A DNA stretch of 37,809 nucleotides from a virus (taxonomy: Duplodnaviria; Heunggongvirae; Uroviricota; Caudoviricetes): IMG/VR virus record IMGVR_UViG_2602041644_000008, positions 1-37,809 of that record; one strand, 5' to 3'. Below, in pieces: positions 6,391-31,212 of the stretch. The first letter of the stretch is position 1. Each line of letters begins with the position of its first letter. Both the position numbers and the translations under genes were made by a program. Under the pieces are notes generated by a model. It did no database searches. It had not been told where the DNA came from and saw only the letters and a program-made list of their open reading frames with translations.

Positions 6391-6396
6391 AGAAAA

Positions 6397-6412
6397 GGCC
6401 GCTAGAGCGGCC
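6397..6412. terminator. Bidirectional terminator between convergent genes
   Basis: GGCCGC-TAGA-GCGGCC hairpin with T-rich flanks on both strands; overlaps the stop of the minus-strand gene. Confidence 0.5.
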
Positions 6413-7140
6413 TATCGTTTCGCTTTGTGCTCGTCCCAGCACGTTTTGCACCATGCCATTAAGCCATCCGCATTTTGATTATTAGGGTAAAAGCTGGTTC
6501 GTTTTCTGCGGACATTACAAATTGGGCACCACTTCATATGGCGTGTATTCTTTGGACCATCGAGACACCTTGCACACCACTTAGTCAATCCATCTGGATT
6601 TTTTGACGATTTCCTGAATTTTTCATATGGAAGGTTTATTCTGCATCGCAAGCACTGCTTGCTACCACTTGAAACTCTGTTAGCTGATTCTTCTTTTGGC
6701 GGCGATACAGAAGGTATTCTTGCTGGCTCTGATACTGCCTGAGGTGCTTTTTTAGATGACTGAGACGATATGTCATCACCAGGGAATCGTCCATGATATG
6801 CCGGACGCGTTGACACTCCAGGTGGAAGCTCTGCTGTAAATGGCTTTGGCTGAATCAGTTGCCTCTCTTTTGCTAACTCCTGCTGTTTATAATATGTCTG
6901 GATTACCGCACTATCATAAGCAGGAGGTGCGGAAATATTAGGCGCATTACCTCCAGTTTTTTGAAACTGAGTAGAGGTGTGTTCTATCACCTGTGTACGA
7001 TTAATCGTTATCTCCCCATCTTCGGTCTTTATCGTTTTGTTATGATTAACGACCGTACGATCAGAGATCTTAGTCTTGTTCTGGTTGATAACATAAATAA
7101 TCACCGCAACCACACCAACAACTATCCAGAAAACTTCCAT
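6412..7140 (-). CDS. Membrane-anchored protein with two C-terminal zinc-ribbon-like repeats
   Basis: N-terminal TM helix, Pro/Ser-rich linker, then two repeats of C-x2-C ... DGL-x3-WC-x2-C; AT-rich gene; no family recognised. Confidence 0.5.
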   Translation of the reverse strand: MEVFWIVVGVVAVIIYVINQNKTKISDRTVVNHNKTIKTEDGEITINRTQVIEHTSTQFQKTGGNAPNISAPPAYDSAVIQTYYKQQELAKERQLIQPKPFTAELPPGVSTRPAYHGRFPGDDISSQSSKKAPQAVSEPARIPSVSPPKEESANRVSSGSKQCLRCRINLPYEKFRKSSKNPDGLTKWCARCLDGPKNTRHMKWCPICNVRRKRTSFYPNNQNADGLMAWCKTCWDEHKAKR

Positions 7141-7160
7141 TGCTTTTCCTCACAATAACA

Positions 7161-7175
7161 TTACCTTAAAGGTAA
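7161..7175. promoter_or_regulatory. Operator-like palindrome TTACC-TTAAA-GGTAA (copy 2)
   Basis: Perfect inverted repeat 21 bp upstream of the minus-strand gene start (7140). Confidence 0.6.
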
Positions 7176-7253
7176 TATCTTGCTTTCAGGTGATCAAGCG
7201 TTAAACGCAATCAACCAAATAAGGTTGATTTTAATATTTCTTCGCGTTTATCA

Positions 7254-7268
7254 TTACCTTTTAGGTAA
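7254..7268. promoter_or_regulatory. Operator-like palindrome TTACC-TTTTA-GGTAA (copy 3)
   Basis: Perfect inverted repeat at the start of the structured leader upstream of the antirepressor. Confidence 0.6.
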
Positions 7269-7535
7269 ATTTACATCGCACTCCTCTTGTGCCATAGTAA
7301 TTGGGCACTGGCAAAATCCAGTGCCGGGATTGGTCTCCCGGATTACTACAGAGGCACATATGCCGCATAAGCGGTTTTTTTATGTGTAAAGCGCACCTAT
7401 TCTATGGTGAGCTGTGTGGGGGCACCGAAAGGTGCGCCGGGTTCCTTTGTAGCCGGTAAGACCAACTCTGCACAGTTCACCACCATCTGATTGGTCTCAG
7501 CGGTGGTGATTAACCTAACTACAAAGGTGATCGCC

Positions 7536-8228
7536 ATGAATACCAAACCTTCCATCTTTTCCTTTGAGTCATCCTGCCAGATCCGTATGTTCATGATTGA
7601 CGGAGAACCTTGGTTTGTCACCAAAGATGTGTGCAATGCTTTGAATATTGATGTTACACAAGCGAGAAAACTTGATAAAAAAGGCTGGAACAAAAAGGGG
7701 CTGTATTCAATACAGACCCCTGGTGGAATACAAGAACTATCCATCGTTTCAGAATCAGGTCTCTACATCCTTATTCTGCGTTGCAAAGAGGCAATGACAG
7801 AGGGAACGAGAGCGTTCAGATTTCTTGAATGGGTTACAGGTGAGGTTCTTCCTCAGATCCGCCGCACCGGAAGTTACATTAAAAACTCGCTCCCGCAGGA
7901 AGAACGCATAAAGATGGTTGCCGACCAGGTAGCCAACGCCACAGCATCAGCAATGATGCAGGCAATGAAGATAGAGAACAAAACCTACAGTGCCCCACTG
8001 AAGCCCGGCTACCGTAGCCTGATTCATTCTCCGTCTGGTGTTCTCGGCCTGACGGAGAACTCACTGCTGATGAATCTGCTGAACCAGTTACAGGAAGACG
8101 GGCACGATGTATCGGGCGCGGCGGCGGAGCTGACCACCATGTTCTGCTACATCGTCGGTGTGAGCAAATGCCTGCGTGATATCCAGACCCACGCGGAGTA
8201 CATCAACGACAAAGCAGGATTCTTCTGA
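7536..8228 (+). CDS. Antirepressor with N-terminal BRO-N domain and C-terminal antirepressor domain
   Basis: SD AAGGTGA before the ATG at 7536; N-terminal region (IRMFMIDGEPWFVTKDVCNAL ... GLYILILRCKEA ... FRFLEWV) matches the BRO-N fold pattern; C-terminal domain paralogous to the small gene at 6133-6390. Confidence 0.65.
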   Translation: MNTKPSIFSFESSCQIRMFMIDGEPWFVTKDVCNALNIDVTQARKLDKKGWNKKGLYSIQTPGGIQELSIVSESGLYILILRCKEAMTEGTRAFRFLEWVTGEVLPQIRRTGSYIKNSLPQEERIKMVADQVANATASAMMQAMKIENKTYSAPLKPGYRSLIHSPSGVLGLTENSLLMNLLNQLQEDGHDVSGAAAELTTMFCYIVGVSKCLRDIQTHAEYINDKAGFF

Positions 8229-8236
8229 CGGGCGGC

Positions 8237-8258
8237 GGCACAGGGATGTGCCTTTAAA
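8237..8258 (+). terminator. Putative terminator downstream of the antirepressor
   Basis: GGCACA-GGGA-TGTGCC hairpin followed by TTTAAATAATT. Confidence 0.4.
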
Positions 8259-8300
8259 TAATTCTGTACAGATTGCAGACCGGGGGTGAATAGCGTACTA

Positions 8301-8315
8301 TTACCTTAAAGGTAA
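8301..8315. promoter_or_regulatory. Operator-like palindrome TTACC-TTAAA-GGTAA (copy 4) with adjacent promoter
   Basis: Perfect inverted repeat directly after a candidate -35 TTGCAG / 17 bp / -10 TACTAT; 43 bp upstream of the 8358 cassette. Confidence 0.6.
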
Positions 8316-8357
8316 ACCTGTTTTTATTTTATACCTGTAACTTACCGGAGATTAAAG

Positions 8358-8684
8358 ATGACAAAACTTGGATTCGTGATGAGAGGTCCGGTAAGAAGCG
8401 GAACTCATGCAAAGCGTAGCAAGAGTCGTATTTTTACTGGTAAGGTTGTAGCACGTAAATCAGCTATTGGCTCGTTCAATAGTGAAAATGCGGCATTGCG
8501 CCATATTTTTATCAGCACAAAGCCAAGAGCATCCGCTGATGTGCATACAATGTCTATTCCTATCACAAAGAATATCAAGCGGATAAAAAAGCTCTCATCT
8601 GCAGAATCAAAAGAGATATCTTTCCGCCAGCTTAACTCATTAGAAACGCATATGAAGGAAGAGGAATTCGATGTTTTTGAGTGA
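8358..8684 (+). CDS. Small basic protein, putative antitoxin/partner of the YafO-like gene
   Basis: SD GGAG 8 nt upstream; 108 aa, Lys/Arg-rich N-terminus, acidic C-terminus; 14-nt overlap with the downstream gene (translational coupling). No homolog recognised. Confidence 0.4.
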   Translation: MTKLGFVMRGPVRSGTHAKRSKSRIFTGKVVARKSAIGSFNSENAALRHIFISTKPRASADVHTMSIPITKNIKRIKKLSSAESKEISFRQLNSLETHMKEEEFDVFE

Positions 8685-9183
8685 GTATAGCGGGAAGGTT
8701 ATACCTACTGGTGAGTTTAAAACTGATGACTTTCTGATTTCGCTAAAAGATGCTTTTAAACAACACTGGCGTCATGGTCATCATCCTGATCTGGGAAAAG
8801 ATACTCTTTTTGAAAGACCAGACGAAGTATTAGGCTTCCATCTCAGAAAGGTTCATGTCAATATTGGTGAATATGCATCATATTCATACTCATGTACTGA
8901 ACAGTGTTGGGATGAGTGGTCATATGGATTGATTGATGAACAAGGAAATTACAGGCCAAAACCAACCAGTAACGCATATCTCATATATGCAGTCAATGAA
9001 ATAAGAGATGCAGCCTTACTAGCTTATTGGGACCCGCCCGCACACACCAAAGCTAACGCAAAAGTTTGGATGGATTCCGTATTGAATTTCACAAAATTAT
9101 TTCATGAACGAACTAATACAGCTCCACTTAGTAGAAATGTTTATCCGTGGGATTATTCGTACAAATCCAAAAAGCCTGCATAG
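8671..9183 (+). CDS. YafO-family toxin-like protein (putative ribosome-dependent mRNA interferase)
   Basis: Strong SD (GGAAGAGGAA); segments LGKDTLFE, LRKVHVNI and YLIYAVNE...ALLAYWDPPAHTKA resemble recalled YafO motifs (GRDALYD, ERVAHIHL, HLVYCQG...WLLIAILKPEPHKLA). Recall-based; needs HMM confirmation. Confidence 0.45.
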   Translation: MFLSEYSGKVIPTGEFKTDDFLISLKDAFKQHWRHGHHPDLGKDTLFERPDEVLGFHLRKVHVNIGEYASYSYSCTEQCWDEWSYGLIDEQGNYRPKPTSNAYLIYAVNEIRDAALLAYWDPPAHTKANAKVWMDSVLNFTKLFHERTNTAPLSRNVYPWDYSYKSKKPA

Positions 9184-9264
9184 TAGTTTTTTATGGACGA
9201 AACAAAAGTCAGTGCTACACTCATTGACGCCACATTGAGGTGGCTTATAGATGGAAATTTCACA

Positions 9265-9426
9265 ATGAAAAAAGCATTTGCTGCACTGTTCGTTTTGTTG
9301 TCTCTGGTAGCTTCAACTCAGGCCTTTGCCGGTCGTTGTCAGCACGACAGCGATACTGCCGCTGACGGCTCCCGCTGCGGTGGGCGTTCTGCGGATTCCC
9401 GCCCGGGCGGCGGTGGCATTCGTTAA
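9265..9426 (+). CDS. Small secreted Cys-containing peptide
   Basis: MKKAFAALFVLLSLVASTQAFA signal peptide, then ~31-aa Gly/Arg/Asp-rich mature peptide with two Cys; weak RBS. Confidence 0.3.
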   Translation: MKKAFAALFVLLSLVASTQAFAGRCQHDSDTAADGSRCGGRSADSRPGGGGIR

Positions 9427-9432
9427 AAACAA

Positions 9433-9448
9433 GGCCGCGAAAGCGGCC
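9433..9448. terminator. Bidirectional terminator
   Basis: GGCCGC-GAAA-GCGGCC hairpin with T-rich tracts on both strands; between convergent genes. Confidence 0.55.
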
Positions 9449-9455
9449 TGTTTGA

Positions 9456-25344: not shown

Positions 25345-25433
25345 ATCAATGACTCCGTACGCAATTAAATTATTACCAATTTAACCACATATGATTTATT
25401 TATCGTAGATAATTGACATTTAACGCACGAGTT

Positions 25434-25448
25434 ATTACCTTTCAGGTA
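25434..25448. promoter_or_regulatory. Operator-like palindrome TTACC-TTTCA-GGTAA (copy 5)
   Basis: Perfect inverted repeat ~90 bp upstream of the portal-side operon; TTGACA hexamer 17 bp upstream on the plus strand. Confidence 0.55.
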
Positions 25449-25771
25449 AGCAAAGAGTTCATTCCGGTTATTAACCTGACTGGCTTGTCGTTAAATTGAA
25501 CAGGTGGAGTGAGCTTTTATTTTGAGCAGTACGGCGTATGGCACATGCGCCGATAGCGGTCTGGATACGTTTAAGGGGTACCCTCCCTTGCTCGGGCAAA
25601 CGAACCAGGTAGCCGGAATGTGCAAGTCGAGCGGTTTTATTCCGCGCACGGGGATTCACCATCCCGGCGATTCGGTGTGACGCCTCGGAAGAGACGAGGG
25701 TACAACGATGAGAGCATTTATGGAGCCGCGACAAAGTGTGGCGCCTTAACAGGCTAAGTGCTCTCAGCGTT

Positions 25772-25848
25772 GTGGCATTAGCTCAGTTGGACAGAGCAAC
25801 CGCCTTCTAAGCGGTTGGTTGCAGGTTCGAATCCTGCATGCCACGCCA
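25772..25848 (+). tRNA. tRNA-Arg (anticodon UCU)
   Basis: 77 nt; acceptor stem GTGGCAT/ATGCCAC, D-stem GCTC/GAGC, anticodon stem ACCGC/GCGGT with loop CTTCTAA (anticodon TCT), T-arm GCAGG-TTCGAAT-CCTGC, discriminator G and encoded CCA. Confidence 0.85.
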
Positions 25849-25891
25849 GAATCACGCCTAAGGACCGTGATGCCAGAAGTTCCAGGTGCTT

Positions 25892-25934
25892 GGCGGTGAC
25901 AGTTTCCCTTGAAGGACTATCACCGCCCTTTTTA
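25892..25934 (+). terminator. Terminator downstream of the tRNA
   Basis: GGCGGTGA ... TCACCGCC stem followed by CTTTTT. Confidence 0.5.
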
Positions 25935-26046
25935 CAGCAGGACGCCATTGCGATGACTTCATGCTGTAAACCCGTACAGCCACGGAAGGCATAACTCATT
26001 GCTTCCAGTTCGCCCGGTTCGCCGGGCATTTTTTTAAGGTGAGATT

Positions 26047-26403
26047 ATGAACGACCAGCAAATCGAAAAAGAAATCGTTGAGAAAGGCAAAACCGCTCCG
26101 CGAGTTACGCCTCAATATATCGAAAGCATCATTCTTGAAGAGCATTTCTTTACTGCTTATGACGGCATTCGTGCTGCCAATATGGGCGTTGGCGATACGT
26201 GGACAGCGCATAAATCTACAGACCTCCTTACTTTCTGCGTACTGGTGCTGAAGAATGGCTTCACCGTCACCGGAGAGAGCGCATGTGCAAGCCCGGAAAA
26301 CTTTGATGCAGAAATTGGTCGGAAGATTGCCAGGCAGAATGCTGTAAACAAAATCTGGATGCTTGAAGGTTACTTGCTGAAGCAGAAGTTAAGCGAGCAA
26401 TAA
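26047..26403 (+). CDS. Small phage accessory protein (possibly Gp49-like)
   Basis: 118 aa on the strand opposite to the flanking terminase/portal genes; family assignment from recall only. Confidence 0.45.
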   Translation: MNDQQIEKEIVEKGKTAPRVTPQYIESIILEEHFFTAYDGIRAANMGVGDTWTAHKSTDLLTFCVLVLKNGFTVTGESACASPENFDAEIGRKIARQNAVNKIWMLEGYLLKQKLSEQ

Positions 26404-26407
26404 CACC

Positions 26408-26419
26408 GTGACATGTCAC
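26408..26419. repeat. 12-bp perfect palindrome GTGACATGTCAC (copy 1)
   Basis: Exact palindrome between the small plus-strand gene and the terL 3' end; identical to copy at 28673-28684. Confidence 0.6.
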
Positions 26420-26423
26420 AAAC

Positions 26424-26450
26424 AGCCAGCCTATGAGCTGGCTTTGTTTT
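26424..26450. terminator. Terminator (plus strand; weaker on minus)
   Basis: AGCCAGC-CTATGA-GCTGGCT followed by TTGTTTT. Confidence 0.55.
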
Positions 26451-26493
26451 ATCCTCACCAGAGGATATCAACGACATTATCCCCACCAGCGGA

Positions 26494-27969
26494 TTAAGCA
26501 TAGGGATCGTAATCTGTAATGGCCTTGCCTTGCTGGTTCTGCTGACCTGGAATTCGCAGACGCTTCGACACAGGGAAAGCAAACGTCAGCAATAGCGCAT
26601 CGCCTTTACCCGGCGAACGCCCAAGCCGCTCCTTGATATCTTCCTTCGGTTCGATAACGATTTTACCGTCCACTCGAACTTTGTACTCTGCCGCCGACAG
26701 GTCGTCCGCTGTTTCCTGGTCATCAAGCATCCCGCCCAGCCTCAGCCATGTCTTGCATGAGTTGAACATCTCCCCACGCTTGTTGAGCATCTGCGGGTCA
26801 GTAGACGCGCCACCGAACGGAACAAGTTGCCATGTGCGCCCCCAACCGTCACCGATTGACTTCAGACCGGTACCGTAACCAAAGTCGATGAACACTGCGT
26901 CAGCCTGATACAGGTCTTCAAAGTCAGCGATACGCTTCGCCATAATCAGATCGTCGGTAGTCTTGTTGCCAGTCCACAGCACCTTACTGTGTAGCCCCTG
27001 CCGCAGGTATATCACCGCGTCATCAACGCCTGAATATGCCGGGTCAACACCGATTATCACCGGAGCATGCGCCACCTGCGCAGCGGTTACCACCCGTTTC
27101 ATTGCCTCATCAGTAAGACCGGTAGGGATAAACTGCAATTCAGATGCATCAGGGAATATGCCGCGCACACGGATTTTAACGAAGTCGCTGTCTTCCCCGT
27201 AGTCATCAACCCATTTCTGCAACTGCTGTTTGTTAGTGCCTTCCACCGTCCGGCTGTCAATCTGCGCAGTTTTCCAGCGGTGTTTATATTTGCGGAAACA
27301 TTCGCGGAAACGCCCGGTGTTACGTGTAGGGTTTCCGAACGCCACCCAGATAATCTCAGTGTCTTCGTCCGTAAGCGCACCCTCAGCAACTTCCCACACC
27401 AGATCCGCAATGTTCGACGCTTCATCGAATACCACGATGATGCGTTTGCGCTCGTTGTGTAGTCCGGCGAATGCCTCAGTGTTGTGCTCAGACCAGGGTA
27501 TTGCGTCAGCCCGCCACCGCTTGTCGTGCCCAGGGTCATTGCTGTACATCGCGGTAGCGGTACAGGTAAACCAGTCTTTCGTGATAGCAAGGTTAGACCA
27601 CTTGATAATTTCCGGCCAGGTCTTCGTTCGTAGCTGGTTGTCGGTGTTAGCGGTCACCACAACCTTACAATCCTCGCAAGTGGACATGCCCCAGTTGATC
27701 AGCATTGAGATGAATGCGGATTTACCAATACCGTGACCAGAAGCGCGTGCCAGCATAAGCGGCTGATAGCGCGTCTCTGGATTCTGCAGGTGATCACGTA
27801 TCTCTCGGAACGCATCAGCCTGCCACTGACGTGGGCCGGTGGCATGTGCCAGTTCAGTCCCCTCTTCCCCCCACGGGAACGCATAGAGAGCATAGCCAAG
27901 CGGATCGTGAGTGAACCCTGCAATATCCTCGATCAACTGCTCTTCAGGAGATAACGCTGTATCTGTCAC
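26494..27969 (-). CDS. Terminase large subunit
   Basis: 491 aa; Walker A-like GHGIGKS near the N-terminus; acidic nuclease-type C-terminal half; follows terS with a 4-nt overlap. Confidence 0.8.
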   Translation of the reverse strand: MTDTALSPEEQLIEDIAGFTHDPLGYALYAFPWGEEGTELAHATGPRQWQADAFREIRDHLQNPETRYQPLMLARASGHGIGKSAFISMLINWGMSTCEDCKVVVTANTDNQLRTKTWPEIIKWSNLAITKDWFTCTATAMYSNDPGHDKRWRADAIPWSEHNTEAFAGLHNERKRIIVVFDEASNIADLVWEVAEGALTDEDTEIIWVAFGNPTRNTGRFRECFRKYKHRWKTAQIDSRTVEGTNKQQLQKWVDDYGEDSDFVKIRVRGIFPDASELQFIPTGLTDEAMKRVVTAAQVAHAPVIIGVDPAYSGVDDAVIYLRQGLHSKVLWTGNKTTDDLIMAKRIADFEDLYQADAVFIDFGYGTGLKSIGDGWGRTWQLVPFGGASTDPQMLNKRGEMFNSCKTWLRLGGMLDDQETADDLSAAEYKVRVDGKIVIEPKEDIKERLGRSPGKGDALLLTFAFPVSKRLRIPGQQNQQGKAITDYDPYA

Positions 27970-28562
27970 TGATTACCATCCTGACGTTCTTTGAGTCGCT
28001 TCCTGGCTGCCGCTATGCGATCAGCAATTGTCACATTCACATTAACATCCAGGCGTTCTTTGAACGCGTTGACATCAACATGCTTACCAATCAGCTCAAG
28101 GTTCTTCACCTTGTCAGGCCATTTAATTTTTTTGAGGATTGTCTCTATCGAATCCTCGTTCATGTTCATGATGGTCGATGACAGATCAAAGCCACTAAGC
28201 GTAGTGCGCCAGATTTTCGGCCACTCACGGATTGGTTTAAGGCTCCCATCGTCGTTGAGGATGTCGATCACGTCCATCTGGTCGATCTCCACCAGGCGCA
28301 TGAGAACGTAATCAGCACTGACGCGCATTCGTTTGTTGCGCTCCTCCATCAACTCGGCAATCCGTTTTTGAATGCGTTCATCGCGCATCATGACACTGGC
28401 TTTAACTGCCGCTGTATTTGGGGAGAATCCTGCGTTAATCGCTGCCTGAGTTTGGTTTTCAGGCGTTTTGATGTATGACTGGCAATAAGCCTCCTGCATT
28501 GTTGTTAGTGGCTTAAATTGCGTTGATTTGCGTTTATAGGTTTTAGGTTCAGCAGGCATCAT
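27966..28562 (-). CDS. Terminase small subunit
   Basis: Helical DNA-binding N-terminal region and oligomerisation-like C-terminus; start set at ATG-ATG (28562/28559) after SD GGTGG; the upstream TTG-initiated extension in the ORF track is low-complexity. Confidence 0.6.
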   Translation of the reverse strand: MMPAEPKTYKRKSTQFKPLTTMQEAYCQSYIKTPENQTQAAINAGFSPNTAAVKASVMMRDERIQKRIAELMEERNKRMRVSADYVLMRLVEIDQMDVIDILNDDGSLKPIREWPKIWRTTLSGFDLSSTIMNMNEDSIETILKKIKWPDKVKNLELIGKHVDVNAFKERLDVNVNVTIADRIAAARKRLKERQDGNQ

Positions 28563-28602
28563 AACCACCGTGGTAATAGTTACCGTTGTGGTAATAGTAC
28601 CA

Positions 28603-28631
28603 TGCAAAATAAAGCCGCCATAGTTGGCGGC
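28603..28631 (-). terminator. Terminator immediately upstream of terS (tR-prime-like)
   Basis: On the minus strand GCCGCCA-ACTA-TGGCGGC followed by TTTATTTTG. Confidence 0.45.
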
Positions 28632-28672
28632 AGTATTCAAAATCCATCAAATTCATCATGCATAATCTACTC

Positions 28673-28684
28673 GTGACATGTCAC
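28673..28684. repeat. 12-bp perfect palindrome GTGACATGTCAC (copy 2)
   Basis: Identical to copy at 26408-26419; ~45 bp upstream (in transcription direction) of the terS-proximal terminator. Confidence 0.6.
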
Positions 28685-29028
28685 ACTATTAATTTCGTTT
28701 CATGCCAGCCTTTAGTCACCCAGCATTGCGAGTCACCATTACACGGGCATGAATTAACGGGAACTCTCTCGCCGCACTTACCGCAAAGTTTTCTGCTGAT
28801 CGATTTTATACGCCCGCGCACACGTGCATCATCCTGGCGGATCAGCAGCGCGATGTACTCGGCCATTTCATAGGGATCGCGACCAGGGCGCCGGGCGGCG
28901 CAGTTCCGCGCCAGCATTTCCTGCTCCTGCTTATCCAGCACCAGTTCAATTTTGCGCTCACCGGCGGCGGACTGCCGAGCGCGCTGCGCGGCTTTGCGTT
29001 CTGCGGGGGATTTAGCCACGAATCGCAC
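28681..29028 (-). CDS. Small protein with C-terminal zinc-ribbon (CGKCG...CPCNGDSQC)
   Basis: 115 aa, basic N-terminal half, Cys cluster at C-terminus; last nin-region gene before terS. Confidence 0.4.
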   Translation of the reverse strand: MRFVAKSPAERKAAQRARQSAAGERKIELVLDKQEQEMLARNCAARRPGRDPYEMAEYIALLIRQDDARVRGRIKSISRKLCGKCGERVPVNSCPCNGDSQCWVTKGWHETKLIV

Positions 29029-30717: not shown

Positions 30718-31212
30718 TCACTCTCCTTTGATGCGAATGCCAGTGGTACTCATTCTCCTGATTTCCCAGAGCACACGAGGAACACCACCGTTTCCGACCG
30801 GATCGCGCTTACTCCGCATGGCGACGCTTGATTCCGCCCAGCTTTTTCTTGGAGGAAGCTCTTTCACACGAACAAAACCAGCTGCGCGAAGAGATGCTCC
30901 TGATTCATCTGCCTGGGTGTACGTAATACAACGTTGATAACCCATAGCCTTTGCTGCCCGCCAGACAGCACCATAAAGCGCGCTGTTAGCGTTGCGTTCT
31001 CCTGTGGTACATGTGCGATTTACTTCAAGCGTTAATCCATCGTCCAAATGTCGTGCAACAGGTCGACCAGCTGTCGCCACACCTATCAATTCTCCGGCAT
31101 TATTTCTCAGACCAATGCTGAATTTATGCCCCACTGGTGGTTTATTGTGTCGGTGGTGCTGTGCGATAAATTCCTGCGCCGCTTTCAGCGTTATAGGTGA
31201 AATGACCATCAC
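30718..31212 (-). CDS. Hypothetical nin-region protein
   Basis: 164-aa ORF with overlapping start/stop junctions; no family recognised. Confidence 0.4.
   Translation of the reverse strand: MMVISPITLKAAQEFIAQHHRHNKPPVGHKFSIGLRNNAGELIGVATAGRPVARHLDDGLTLEVNRTCTTGERNANSALYGAVWRAAKAMGYQRCITYTQADESGASLRAAGFVRVKELPPRKSWAESSVAMRSKRDPVGNGGVPRVLWEIRRMSTTGIRIKGE

What the first reader, a model, noticed from the sequence alone, without database searches (positions are those of the whole stretch)
26408..28684. Identical 12-bp perfect palindromes bracket the terminase genes; terminator and 11-bp direct repeats upstream of terS
GTGACATGTCAC occurs at 26408-26419 and 28673-28684, each next to a terminator hairpin, tightly flanking terS-terL. 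In the terS leader there is a terminator (28603-28631, minus strand) followed by two direct repeats of ACTATTACCAC right up to the SD. The layout resembles a late promoter with a terminator that needs antitermination (lambda pR'/tR' logic), with the palindrome as candidate regulator site. Alternatively the palindromes are recombination boundaries of an exchangeable terminase module.
Basis: seen in the sequence. Interest (0 to 1): 0.55.

Follow-up and report, generated by a model that had tools for sequence, protein, structure and literature searches.

The report
Phage regulator's conserved 12-bp binding site
The two identical palindromes around the terminase genes are real and look like the DNA-binding site (GTGAC-NN-GTCAC) of a small uncharacterised phage protein encoded right next to one copy; this protein-plus-site pair recurs in several unrelated temperate phage groups and marks the borders of transcription units and swappable cargo genes.

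Summary
Observation confirmed. GTGACATGTCAC occurs exactly twice in the window, at 26408 and 28673 (0.06 expected). The terminators and the 11-bp repeats are also real.

The window is an epsilon15/phiV10-like (Uetakevirus) prophage. The upstream copy overlaps the TGA stop codon of a 115-aa gene (phiV10 p55, epsilon15 gp49, N15 gp46; PHROG 536). [quoted passage not shown]

- Of 79 relatives chosen by this protein alone, 76 have the exact 12-mer on the stop codon.
- In loci chosen by terL alone, 15 of 15 with the protein have GTGAC-NN-GTCAC; 0 of 32 without it do.
- The same half-sites, with a free 2-bp centre, sit at or near the gene's end in N15, phiKO2, three Vibrio phages, Pantoea AH07, two Yersinia P2-like phages and a Pseudomonas prophage.
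- In Uetakeviruses further copies lie between a gene's stop and an intrinsic terminator, at junctions where cargo genes vary. Homology breakpoints pile up at both window copies.

Best reading: it is the protein's operator, a boundary element acting on RNA polymerase passage. The direction of the effect is unknown and no binding has been shown. A lambda pR'/tR'-type promoter is not supported. The half-sites equal E. coli matS, but the site is 12 bp, not 13.

The parts
28673..28684 (.). Palindrome copy J1 (GTGACATGTCAC). It overlaps the TGA stop codon of the p55 gene and lies 41 nt upstream (minus-strand direction) of the terminator that precedes terS.
   Evidence: The exact 12-mer is at this position in 76 of 79 p55-selected relatives. 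34 homology segments start at 28671/2.
26408..26419 (.). Palindrome copy J2. It lies between the terminator hairpin downstream of terL and the stop codon of the convergent cargo ORF.
   Evidence: Exact at this position in about 57 of 78 relatives. The adjacent hairpin differs in sequence between lineages while the 12-mer stays, and at least 15 different cargo sequences abut it. 18 homology segments start at 26398-26407.
28681..29028 (-). p55 gene (phiV10 p55 / epsilon15 gp49 / N15 gp46 family, PHROG 536). The 115-aa product has an N-terminal basic helix, a ribbon-helix-helix core and a C-terminal Cys4 segment. It is the proposed binder of the palindrome. The start may instead be the GTG at 29019, as most homologues are 112 aa.
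28604..28631 (-). Intrinsic terminator between p55 and terS (stem-loop 28631-28614 plus T-run).
   Evidence: Conserved in most relatives.
28570..28598 (-). terS leader element. Two direct repeats ACTATTACCAC (28570-28580, 28588-28598) contain an invariant inverted repeat TTACC-N5-GGTAA (28580-28584 / 28590-28594), and are followed by the Shine-Dalgarno GGTGG.
   Evidence: The core is invariant in relatives down to 66% TerS identity, and it stays with terS whatever lies upstream. No covariation.
27966..28562 (-). terS (small terminase subunit).
   Evidence: Pfam PF03592, E 1.6e-29.
26494..27969 (-). terL (large terminase subunit).
   Evidence: 99% identical to the annotated phiV10 terL.
26424..26450 (+). 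Terminator hairpin next to J2. The T-run is on the plus strand; on the minus strand the tail is only moderately T-rich and runs into the palindrome.
26047..26403 (+). Cargo ORF (N4 gp49 / Sf6 gp66 family). It is swapped as an ORF-sized unit between a conserved Shine-Dalgarno/ATG region and the palindrome.
   Evidence: Pfam PF13876, E 1.6e-34. Homology ends at 26035-26054 and resumes at 26398-26407.
9431..9449 (.). Junction J4 hairpin AAGGCCGCGAAAGCGGCCT. In 97-99 of 119 relatives the palindrome follows it directly; this window lacks it.
6395..6413 (.). Junction J3 hairpin AAGGCCGCTAGAGCGGCCT. In some relatives the palindrome follows it; this window lacks it.

Best explanation
The 12-mer is the cognate binding site (consensus GTGAC-NN-GTCAC) of the small ribbon-helix-helix (RHH) plus Cys4 protein encoded at 28681-29028 (p55).

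Shown:
- The protein and the site form a conserved pair. The primary copy sits on the gene's own stop codon.
- In epsilon15-like phages further copies sit between a gene's stop codon and an intrinsic terminator, at the borders of transcription units. These are the same places where cargo genes are exchanged.

Inferred:
- A p55 dimer binds the two GTGAC half-sites.
- Its occupancy controls whether RNA polymerase passes these borders.

My committed guess for the mechanism is negative. p55 would act as a roadblock or insulator that reinforces the adjacent terminators. It would also limit its own synthesis by stalling polymerase before its stop codon, as LacI does at O3 at the end of lacI (from my own knowledge). 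At J1 it would gate read-through from the early operon into terS-terL. At J2 it would separate terL from the convergent cargo gene.

Rough probabilities: protein-site pairing about 0.75; a transcription-boundary function about 0.45; a negative rather than positive effect about 0.6 given that function.
For: - Site on the stop codon: 76 of 79 p55-selected IMG/VR loci have the exact 12-mer there. Within +-5 kb the only other copy is the one after terL.
- Co-occurrence in terL-selected genomes: 15 of 15 p55-positive loci carry GTGAC-NN-GTCAC (23 sites in 194 kb). 0 of 32 p55-negative loci do (0 sites in 372 kb).
- Not a coding constraint: the site persists 9 nt past a TAA stop in lambdoid prophages that carry p55 but no related terminase.
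- Unrelated phage types keep the pair, with p55 at 35-50% identity and flanks that cannot be aligned: N15 and phiKO2 (GTGACTGGTCAC on the TGA), Pantoea AH07, Vibrio PE002B, VPHZ6 and K308, Yersinia P2-like phages (two copies 33 bp apart near cos), and a Pseudomonas prophage.
- Half-sites are invariant and the centre is free, the pattern expected for a dimeric DNA binder.
- Precedent: the RHH protein ArtA, which has a basic N-terminal arm, binds a 10-bp site as a single dimer (PMC2777438).
- Boundary position: the arrangement 'gene stop - site - terminator' holds at J1, J2 and J4, and sometimes at J3.
Against: - No binding data exist.
- The site is physically linked to the gene, so part of the co-occurrence is hitch-hiking. 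The p55-positive versus p55-negative contrast in the terL set is confounded by phylogeny.
- Exceptions: L209 has p55 but no site. L192 has the site deleted. Aeromonas Ahp2 has a 1-mismatch site.
- The predicted beta-strand residues differ between lineages that share the same site (KIELVL versus TVTLRL). Recognition would therefore have to come from the conserved N-terminal basic helix, or from another factor.
- For the negative mechanism: it is unclear why a phage would block passage from terL towards the portal gene. This window also lacks the site at J3 and J4 although the terminators are there.
- In Vibrio K308 and N15 the site abuts a ribosome-binding site rather than a terminator.
Confidence: 0.55

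Rival explanations
1. p55 would be the late-gene regulator of epsilon15-like phages and act like lambda Q. It would load at the palindrome and let RNA polymerase read through the terminator in front of terS, and through the terminators at J2, J4 and J3. The polymerase would come either from a weak promoter whose -35 is the GTGACA half-site or from the early operon.
For: - p55 is the last gene of the early-right operon and directly precedes terS, the position Q holds in lambdoid phages. No Q-like or other late regulator was found by Pfam or PHROGs in the window.
- A strong terminator follows the site.
- In most lineages p55 lies 0.03-3 kb upstream of terS or the lysis genes.
- Every terminator that a single late transcript would have to cross has a site next to it in most relatives.
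- Weak -35/-10 match.
Against: - The promoter match is weak and not conserved. The DNA after the site is hypervariable.
- No RHH protein that I know of is an antiterminator; nearly all are repressors (my own knowledge).
- N15/phiKO2 and P2-like phages carry the pair but have their own late regulators: q in immB per PMC4997575, Ogr from my own knowledge.
- At J2 the site lies after the hairpin in the late direction.
- This window lacks the site at J3 and J4.
Confidence: 0.2
2. The palindrome is primarily a recombination joint: a short conserved linker or target at which cargo cassettes and islands are exchanged between phages. Protein binding would be secondary, or would act by stalling replication forks.
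For: - Homology breakpoints pile up at 28671/2 (34 loci) and 26398-26407 (18 loci).
- At least 15 cargo alleles abut J2 and at least 8 abut J4, starting within 0-4 nt of the site.
- L017, L026 and L030 join the J3 flank, the hairpin and the site to what is J4 cargo elsewhere. This implies gain or loss of the 3-kb island through the repeated hairpin-plus-site module.
Against: - No recombinase or nuclease is linked to the site, and p55 has no catalytic fold.
- Breakpoints cluster just as strongly at plain gene borders: 29010 (64), 26050 (28), 26490 (22).
- The site is kept where nothing varies (N15/phiKO2, the Yersinia cos region).
- The half-site/centre pattern points to protein recognition. 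12 bp is too short for ordinary homologous recombination.
- The terminase module itself is not the exchanged unit.
Confidence: 0.13
3. The protein-site pair serves DNA packaging, for example by marking or protecting the pac/cos region for terminase.
For: - One copy lies close to the packaging start in three lineages: 111 nt before terS here, 19 nt before the terS ATG in Vibrio K308, and 230-330 bp from the G+C-rich putative cos in Yersinia P2-like prophages.
Against: - The N15 and phiKO2 site is about 7 kb from cos.
- The J2, J3 and J4 copies and the lambdoid-prophage copies have no link to packaging.
- The site travels with p55, not with any terminase type.
- The element that does stay with terS is the TTACC-N5-GGTAA repeat, not the palindrome.
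Confidence: 0.07
4. The site is a matS mimic bound by host MatP or another host factor such as SlmA, and the link to p55 is coincidental.
Against: - The spacing is 2 bp, not 3, in every lineage; no 13-bp version was seen.
- The site occurs in a Pseudomonas prophage, and to my knowledge that genus lacks MatP.
- Prophages avoid true matS.
- The site tracks p55.
Confidence: 0.03

Closest known systems
MatP / matS of E. coli (Ter macrodomain organiser)
   Different: The site is 12 bp (2-bp centre, any bases) and matS is 13 bp (R-N-Y centre). There is no sequence homology (hhalign probability 0.1). p55 has one N-terminal helix where MatP has a four-helix bundle, and a Cys4 C-terminal segment where MatP has a coiled coil. 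p55 is phage-encoded and its primary site lies on its own stop codon.
Lambda Q with its binding site at pR' and terminator tR'
   Same: The regulator gene is the last gene of the early operon. Its DNA site lies immediately downstream of the gene, followed by a terminator and then the late (terminase) genes.
   Different: p55 has no homology to any Q family (Pfam finds none). No conserved promoter overlaps the site. The site also occurs at 3' ends of convergent units and in phages that have their own late regulators. The RHH fold is not known to me in antiterminators.
Phage and plasmid RHH repressors (P22 Arc and Mnt, CopG, pSK41 ArtA)
   Same: Small RHH proteins that recognise short symmetric or repeated operators. 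ArtA has an N-terminal basic extension and binds a 10-bp ACATG-containing site as one dimer (PMC2777438).
   Different: Those operators overlap promoters upstream of the regulated genes. Here the site lies at the 3' end of the regulator's own gene and next to terminators. p55 also has an added Cys4 segment.
lacI-O3 arrangement (operator at the 3' end of the repressor gene; roadblock, truncated mRNA, tmRNA tagging) - from my own knowledge
   Same: The operator overlaps the end of the regulator's own coding sequence, so binding can stop both its own synthesis and read-through downstream.
   Different: Different protein fold. Nothing has been shown for p55.
Morons and mosaic 'linker' junctions of temperate phages (Hendrix/Juhala concept) - from my own knowledge
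   Same: Cargo genes with their own terminators are inserted between conserved late genes, with sharp homology breaks at gene borders.
   Different: Here one identical 12-bp protein-type site recurs at up to four different junctions and is tied to one protein family. To my knowledge this is not part of the moron concept.

Membership tests
[quoted passage not shown] | Beta-alpha-alpha fold | tested here: met
[quoted passage not shown] | A dimer binds a symmetric or repeated operator | not testable with these tools
   Inferred from invariant half-sites with a free centre and from two sites 33 bp apart in Yersinia prophages.
PHROG 536 ('transcriptional regulator') | Profile match over the full length | tested here: met
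   E 1.2e-53, residues 5-114 of 115. The family name is an annotation, not a tested function.
MatP/matS system | 13-bp site GTGACRNYGTCAC | tested here: not met
   The site is 12 bp in every lineage. No GTGAC-N3-GTCAC occurs in the window, and only one unrelated hit was found in 47 loci.
MatP/matS system | Protein homologous to MatP (four-helix bundle, RHH, coiled coil) | tested here: not met
   hhalign probability 0.1, using a MatP sequence verified against 4d8j. The model has a single N-terminal helix and a Cys-rich C-terminus.
Lambda Q-type late antitermination (pR'-qut-tR') | Q-family protein | tested here: not met
   No Pfam family matches p55. No Q family was found in the early region.
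Lambda Q-type late antitermination (pR'-qut-tR') | Constitutive promoter overlapping the binding site | tested here: inconclusive
   Only a 9/12 match (GTGACA-18-CATGAT). Promoter-like hits are not above shuffles. The region is not conserved in relatives.
Lambda Q-type late antitermination (pR'-qut-tR') | Intrinsic terminator between the site and the late genes | tested here: met
   Hairpin 28631-28614 plus T-run.
Site-specific recombination cassette system (integron-like) | A dedicated recombinase linked to the sites | tested here: not met
   No recombinase lies next to the sites. p55 is a 115-aa RHH protein. PADLOC, Pfam and PHROGs gave nothing of the kind.
Site-specific recombination cassette system (integron-like) | Sites at both ends of the exchanged units | tested here: inconclusive
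   The island 6414-9449 is flanked by hairpin(+site) repeats in relatives. But the J2 cargo has the site at its 3' end only; its 5' border is the Shine-Dalgarno/ATG region.

The most novel reading that the evidence does not exclude
p55 and GTGAC-NN-GTCAC form a portable 'boundary element' system of temperate phages. A phage-encoded, MatP-like site-specific binder would mark the ends of transcription units. By stalling polymerases or replication forks there, it would both insulate cargo genes and create the hotspots at which cargo cassettes and islands are swapped. This would be a recombinase-free counterpart of an integron slot, shared by podo-, myo- and siphovirus-type phages.
Probability: 0.12. 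Interest if true: 0.85.

Novelty: new variant of a known kind. Interest (0 to 1): 0.6.

Why it matters
To my knowledge, late-gene control and the logic of cargo ('moron') slots in epsilon15/phiV10-like phages are not understood. These phages include serotype-converting prophages and prophages of O157 strains.

This work links an uncharacterised protein family to a precise 12-bp site that can now be tested. The family has about 219 clusters at 50% identity and includes N15 gp46 and epsilon15 gp49. No paper in the searched library contains the 12-mer.

If the pairing holds, it provides:
- a new RHH specificity with matS-like half-sites;
- a handle on how these phages close or open transcription units around the terminase genes;
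- a sequence marker for cargo junctions that could help annotate prophage accessory genes.

Tried and rejected
- Chance occurrence: rejected.
- Coding constraint from the p55 C-terminus: rejected. Only 4 nt of the site are coding, and the site persists 9 nt beyond a TAA stop.
- Known RNA element: Rfam found nothing at either site or in the terS leader, at gathering threshold or at E <= 1.
- RNA hairpin as the functional form: unlikely. The stem bases are invariant, with no compensatory changes over Vibrio, Pseudomonas and enterobacterial lineages. The centre varies, the site occurs in either orientation relative to transcription, and it occurs in a region of the Yersinia prophage with no called genes.
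- CRP/FNR-type site: rejected. The TGA...TCA spacing is 4, not 6 (my own knowledge of the consensus).
- Phage repressor operator: no copies lie in the immunity region.
- TerS as the binder: rejected as the main idea, because the site follows p55 into phages with unrelated terminases or none nearby.
- Sequence homology of p55 to solved structures: none.
- Foldseek against the PDB: nothing.
- PADLOC defence models: nothing.
- Papers on vB_EcoP_ZX5 and on the Epsilon15 packaging apparatus: no information on pac, the late promoter or this site.
- About half of the IMG/VR 14-mer hits were irrelevant. They were coding 'RDMSQ' in proteins that I take, from memory, to be Q-like, or GTGAC-repeat arrays in other phages.
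Full report
**What is there.**
The 12-mer GTGACATGTCAC occurs at 26408-26419 and 28673-28684 and nowhere else in the 37.8-kb window. This holds even with one mismatch; 0.06 copies are expected, and 0 of 100 shuffles reach 2. Relaxing to GTGAC-NN-GTCAC with one half-site mismatch still finds only these two.

All late genes are on the minus strand. terS is at 27966-28562 (Terminase_2) and terL at 26494-27969. The window is an epsilon15/phiV10-like (Uetakevirus) prophage, about 95-97% identical to phiV10, TL-2011b, PAS61 and others over this region.

So is the hairpin at 26424-26443 with a plus-strand T-run. The direct repeats ACTATTACCAC lie at 28570-28580 and 28588-28598 and end at the terS Shine-Dalgarno sequence.

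- The upstream copy (J1) overlaps the TGA stop codon of a 115-aa ORF (28681-29028, minus strand). This ORF is the last gene of the early-right operon, which runs O-like, lambda-P-like, Ea22, Mom-like, DUF551, then this gene.
- It is phiV10 p55 / epsilon15 gp49, PHROG 536 'transcriptional regulator'. It has no Pfam or NCBIfam family.
- The downstream copy (J2) lies 4 nt from the terL-side hairpin and 4 nt after the stop of a convergent plus-strand cargo ORF of the gp49/Sf6-gp66 family (26047-26403). That ORF belongs to a small island that also carries tRNA-Arg.

**The site is a family trait with strict positions.**
About half are epsilon15-like. In these the site falls into four junction classes, always in the order 'gene stop - site - intrinsic terminator':
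  - J1, the p55 stop codon (41 cases);
  - J2, after the terL hairpin (15);
  - J4 (8) and J3 (3), next to GGCCGC...GCGGCC hairpins that in this window lie at 9431-9449 and 6395-6413.
- That scan is biased by construction, so I built three unbiased samples.
- Selected by p55 protein alone (80 IMG/VR loci): 76 of 79 evaluable have the exact 12-mer overlapping the stop codon, and one more has intact half-sites. The only other copy within +-5 kb is J2, exact in about 57 of 78.
- Selected by terL alone (47 species genomes): all 15 loci that encode a p55 homologue carry GTGAC-NN-GTCAC (23 sites in 194 kb). None of the 32 loci without p55 does (0 in 372 kb). This contrast is confounded by phylogeny, because the p55-positive loci have terL at 75% identity or more.
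- Selected by the conserved left flank of J4: 97-99 of 119 loci have the site directly after the hairpin, with at least 8 different cargo sequences beyond it. This window belongs to the 15 that have another junction and no site.

**The site is not a by-product of coding or of flanking homology.**
- Only 4 nt of J1 are coding.
- In lambdoid prophages that carry p55 in their int-xis-side early region, with no related terminase nearby, the stop codon is TAA and the palindrome follows 9 nt later.
- At J2 the neighbouring hairpin has different sequences in different lineages (GCCAGC... or GCCCGC...) while the 12-mer is unchanged. At least 15 unrelated cargo sequences start 0-4 nt beyond it.

**The protein-site pair recurs in unrelated phages.**
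A tblastn search with a Yersinia homologue found the family in 161 phage records. I looked at eleven lineages. Ten have GTGAC-NN-GTCAC with perfect half-sites at or near the gene's stop codon, although the proteins are only 35-50% identical and the flanks cannot be aligned:
- N15 gene 46 and phiKO2 gene 45: GTGACTGGTCAC on the TGA.
- Pantoea AH07: GTGACCTGTCAC.
- Vibrio PE002B and VPHZ6: GTGACAGGTCAC.
- Vibrio K308: two GTGACACGTCAC and one GTGACGCGTCAC in 36 kb, one of them 19 nt before the terS ATG.
- Yersinia P2-like 201.16: GTGACGCGTCAC on the TGA.
- Y. pseudotuberculosis P2-like prophage: GCTTGTGACATGTCACAAGC plus an imperfect copy 33 bp away, in the cos-containing gap between the gene and portal gene Q.
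- A Pseudomonas prophage: GTGACGTGTCAC.
- Aeromonas Ahp2, the eleventh lineage, has a 1-mismatch version.

Chance expectation is about 0.0006 per 600 bp. The half-sites are invariant and the 2-bp centre is free, which is the signature of a dimeric sequence-specific DNA binder. Invariant 'stem' bases without compensatory change, together with occurrence in both orientations, argue against an RNA hairpin as the functional form.

**What the protein is.**
- The alignment of 36 homologues shows three conserved parts: an N-terminal basic helix ([ED]RKxAQRxR), a beta-alpha-alpha core (RKxELxLD ... RRPGRxPYxxxEYIxLLIRQD), and a C-terminal CxxC...C...C segment.
- The AlphaFold2 model (pLDDT 76.5) gives the matching helices.
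- The family has about 219 clusters at 50% identity.

**Relation to matS.**
E. coli matS is GTGAC[AG]N[TC]GTCAC, 13 bp, and prophages avoid it (PMC3603311). MatP uses a central RHH plus an N-terminal helical domain to bind it (PMC12756933). The phage site has the same half-sites but is one base pair shorter in every lineage. The p55 family shows no sequence homology to MatP (hhalign probability 0.1; MatP sequence verified). It resembles MatP-matS in how it may work, but it is not a member of that family.

**Mosaic joints.**
When 95 unbiased relatives are aligned to the window, homology-segment ends pile up at 28671/2 (34 loci) and 26398-26407 (18 loci). These positions are 1-10 nt before each palindrome.
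- What varies lies outside the terminase pair.
- Between J1 and terS, variants have nothing, a small extra gene, or a LexA-box promoter plus a gene.
- Beyond J2, the cargo ORF is swapped between a conserved Shine-Dalgarno/ATG region (26035-26054) and the palindrome.
- L017, L026 and L030 join the J3 flank, the hairpin and the site to what is J4 cargo elsewhere. The 3-kb island 6414-9449 therefore comes and goes through the repeated hairpin-plus-site module.
- Breakpoints are just as frequent at ordinary gene borders: 29010, 26050, 26490. The joints may thus be a consequence of the site's position, or of protein binding, rather than its purpose.

**The terS leader repeats.**
- The two ACTATTACCAC copies are shared by close relatives.
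- Across the whole family (TerS down to 66% identity) the conserved core is an invariant inverted repeat TTACC-N5-GGTAA embedded in imperfect direct repeats, 10-45 nt before the start codon.
- The core stays with terS even when the upstream terminator and p55 are replaced by another gene. No covariation is seen, so nothing can be said about an RNA structure.
- It is a separate, terS-linked element. It could be a translational or TerS/pac operator, but its function is open.

**How it most likely works.**
- Shown: the pairing of site and gene, the RHH fold, and the positions at unit borders.
- Inferred: a p55 dimer binds the half-sites and affects RNA polymerase passage.
- I favour a negative, roadblock or insulator action, for three reasons:
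  - RHH regulators are, to my knowledge, nearly always repressors.
  - The site lies downstream of genes and just before terminators or ribosome-binding sites, not at activator positions.
  - An operator on the regulator's own stop codon recalls lacI-O3 autoregulation.
- The positive, Q-like reading remains viable. It rests on position (last early gene, no Q homologue found, terminator before terS, and a site near each terminator a late transcript must cross).
- Against the Q-like reading: the lack of a conserved promoter, the fold, and the presence of the pair in phages that have their own late regulators.
- Packaging, pure recombination and host MatP mimicry are less likely, for the reasons given under the rival explanations.

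**Limits.**
- There are no binding or expression data.
- The site is physically linked to the gene, which inflates the co-occurrence.
- Exceptions exist: L209, L192 and Ahp2.
- Predicted beta-strand residues differ between lineages that share the same site.
- I found no paper containing the 12-mer, but the library lacks most subscription-journal papers, including the original phiV10 and epsilon15 genome papers.

Noticed in passing
window 7305-7487: Rfam finds isrK (7305-7381, 74.7 bits) and C4 antisense RNA (7400-7487, 78.2 bits), both on the plus strand. This looks like a P1/P7-type c4 (immI-like) antirepressor control module. It sits inside the variable island between the J3 and J4 hairpins, between the internal-virion-protein genes and the tailspike gene.
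   Followed up: no
window 25413-26046: The cargo island next to J2 has several parts: a good sigma-70-like -35 TTGACA at 25413; about 250 nt of G+C-rich sequence without a convincing ORF (25500-25770); tRNA-Arg(TCT) at 25772-25848; and a terminator at 26012-26027 that ends only 19 nt before the cargo ORF's ATG. There is no room for a promoter there, so how that ORF is expressed is unclear. Rfam finds nothing for the 250-nt stretch.
   Followed up: partly
L006, L007, L024, L035, L116, L122 (between the J1 palindrome and terS): Several relatives carry a canonical LexA box (TACTGTTTAAATATACAGTA) overlapping a TTGACT promoter, 6 nt after the palindrome, followed by an extra gene. This would be an SOS-controlled insert (possibly a Tum-like antirepressor) in the slot that is empty in this window.
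   Followed up: no
L153 4783-7233 (also L136, L145, L159, L050; Salmonella PAT1): In several relatives terL is an 816-aa ORF. It has a roughly 325-aa in-frame insertion inside the Walker A loop (GHGIGK | ALRPDD...VTHN | SAFISM). This has the hallmarks of an intein. The window's terL lacks it.
   Followed up: partly
window 6395-6413 and 9431-9449: Two near-identical hairpins (AAGGCCGC-NNNNN-GCGGCCT) in direct orientation flank a 3-kb island. In relatives each is followed by the palindrome, and some genomes lack the island with the joint exactly there. This window has lost the palindrome at both.
   Followed up: partly
window 28560-28690, minus strand: The terS leader RNA folds well beyond chance (-40.9 kcal/mol, z -3.9). 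A long stem pairs the sequence just after the palindrome (about 28671-28658) with the sequence just after the terminator's U-run, including part of the first direct repeat. The terminator hairpin is thus enclosed in a larger structure.
   Followed up: no
window 30718-31212: A Mom-like DNA-modification gene (PHROG 1384, E 4.4e-44; Pfam Mom below its cut-off) lies in the early operon, three genes upstream of p55.
   Followed up: no
L011, L016, L021, L073, L114, L123 and L020, L029, L036, L055, L118: In other phages the 14-mer CGTGACATGTCACA is coding. It encodes R-D-M-S-Q near the N-terminus of proteins that I take, from memory, to be Q-like antiterminators. This looks like a coincidence, but these contigs often also encode a p55 homologue elsewhere.
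   Followed up: no
L256 / L377 (Vibrio phage K308): K308 has three GTGAC-NN-GTCAC sites in 36.4 kb. Two of them lie 19 nt before a start codon (terS, and ORF 21373). The copy before terS is preceded by an extra GTCAC half-site.
   Followed up: partly
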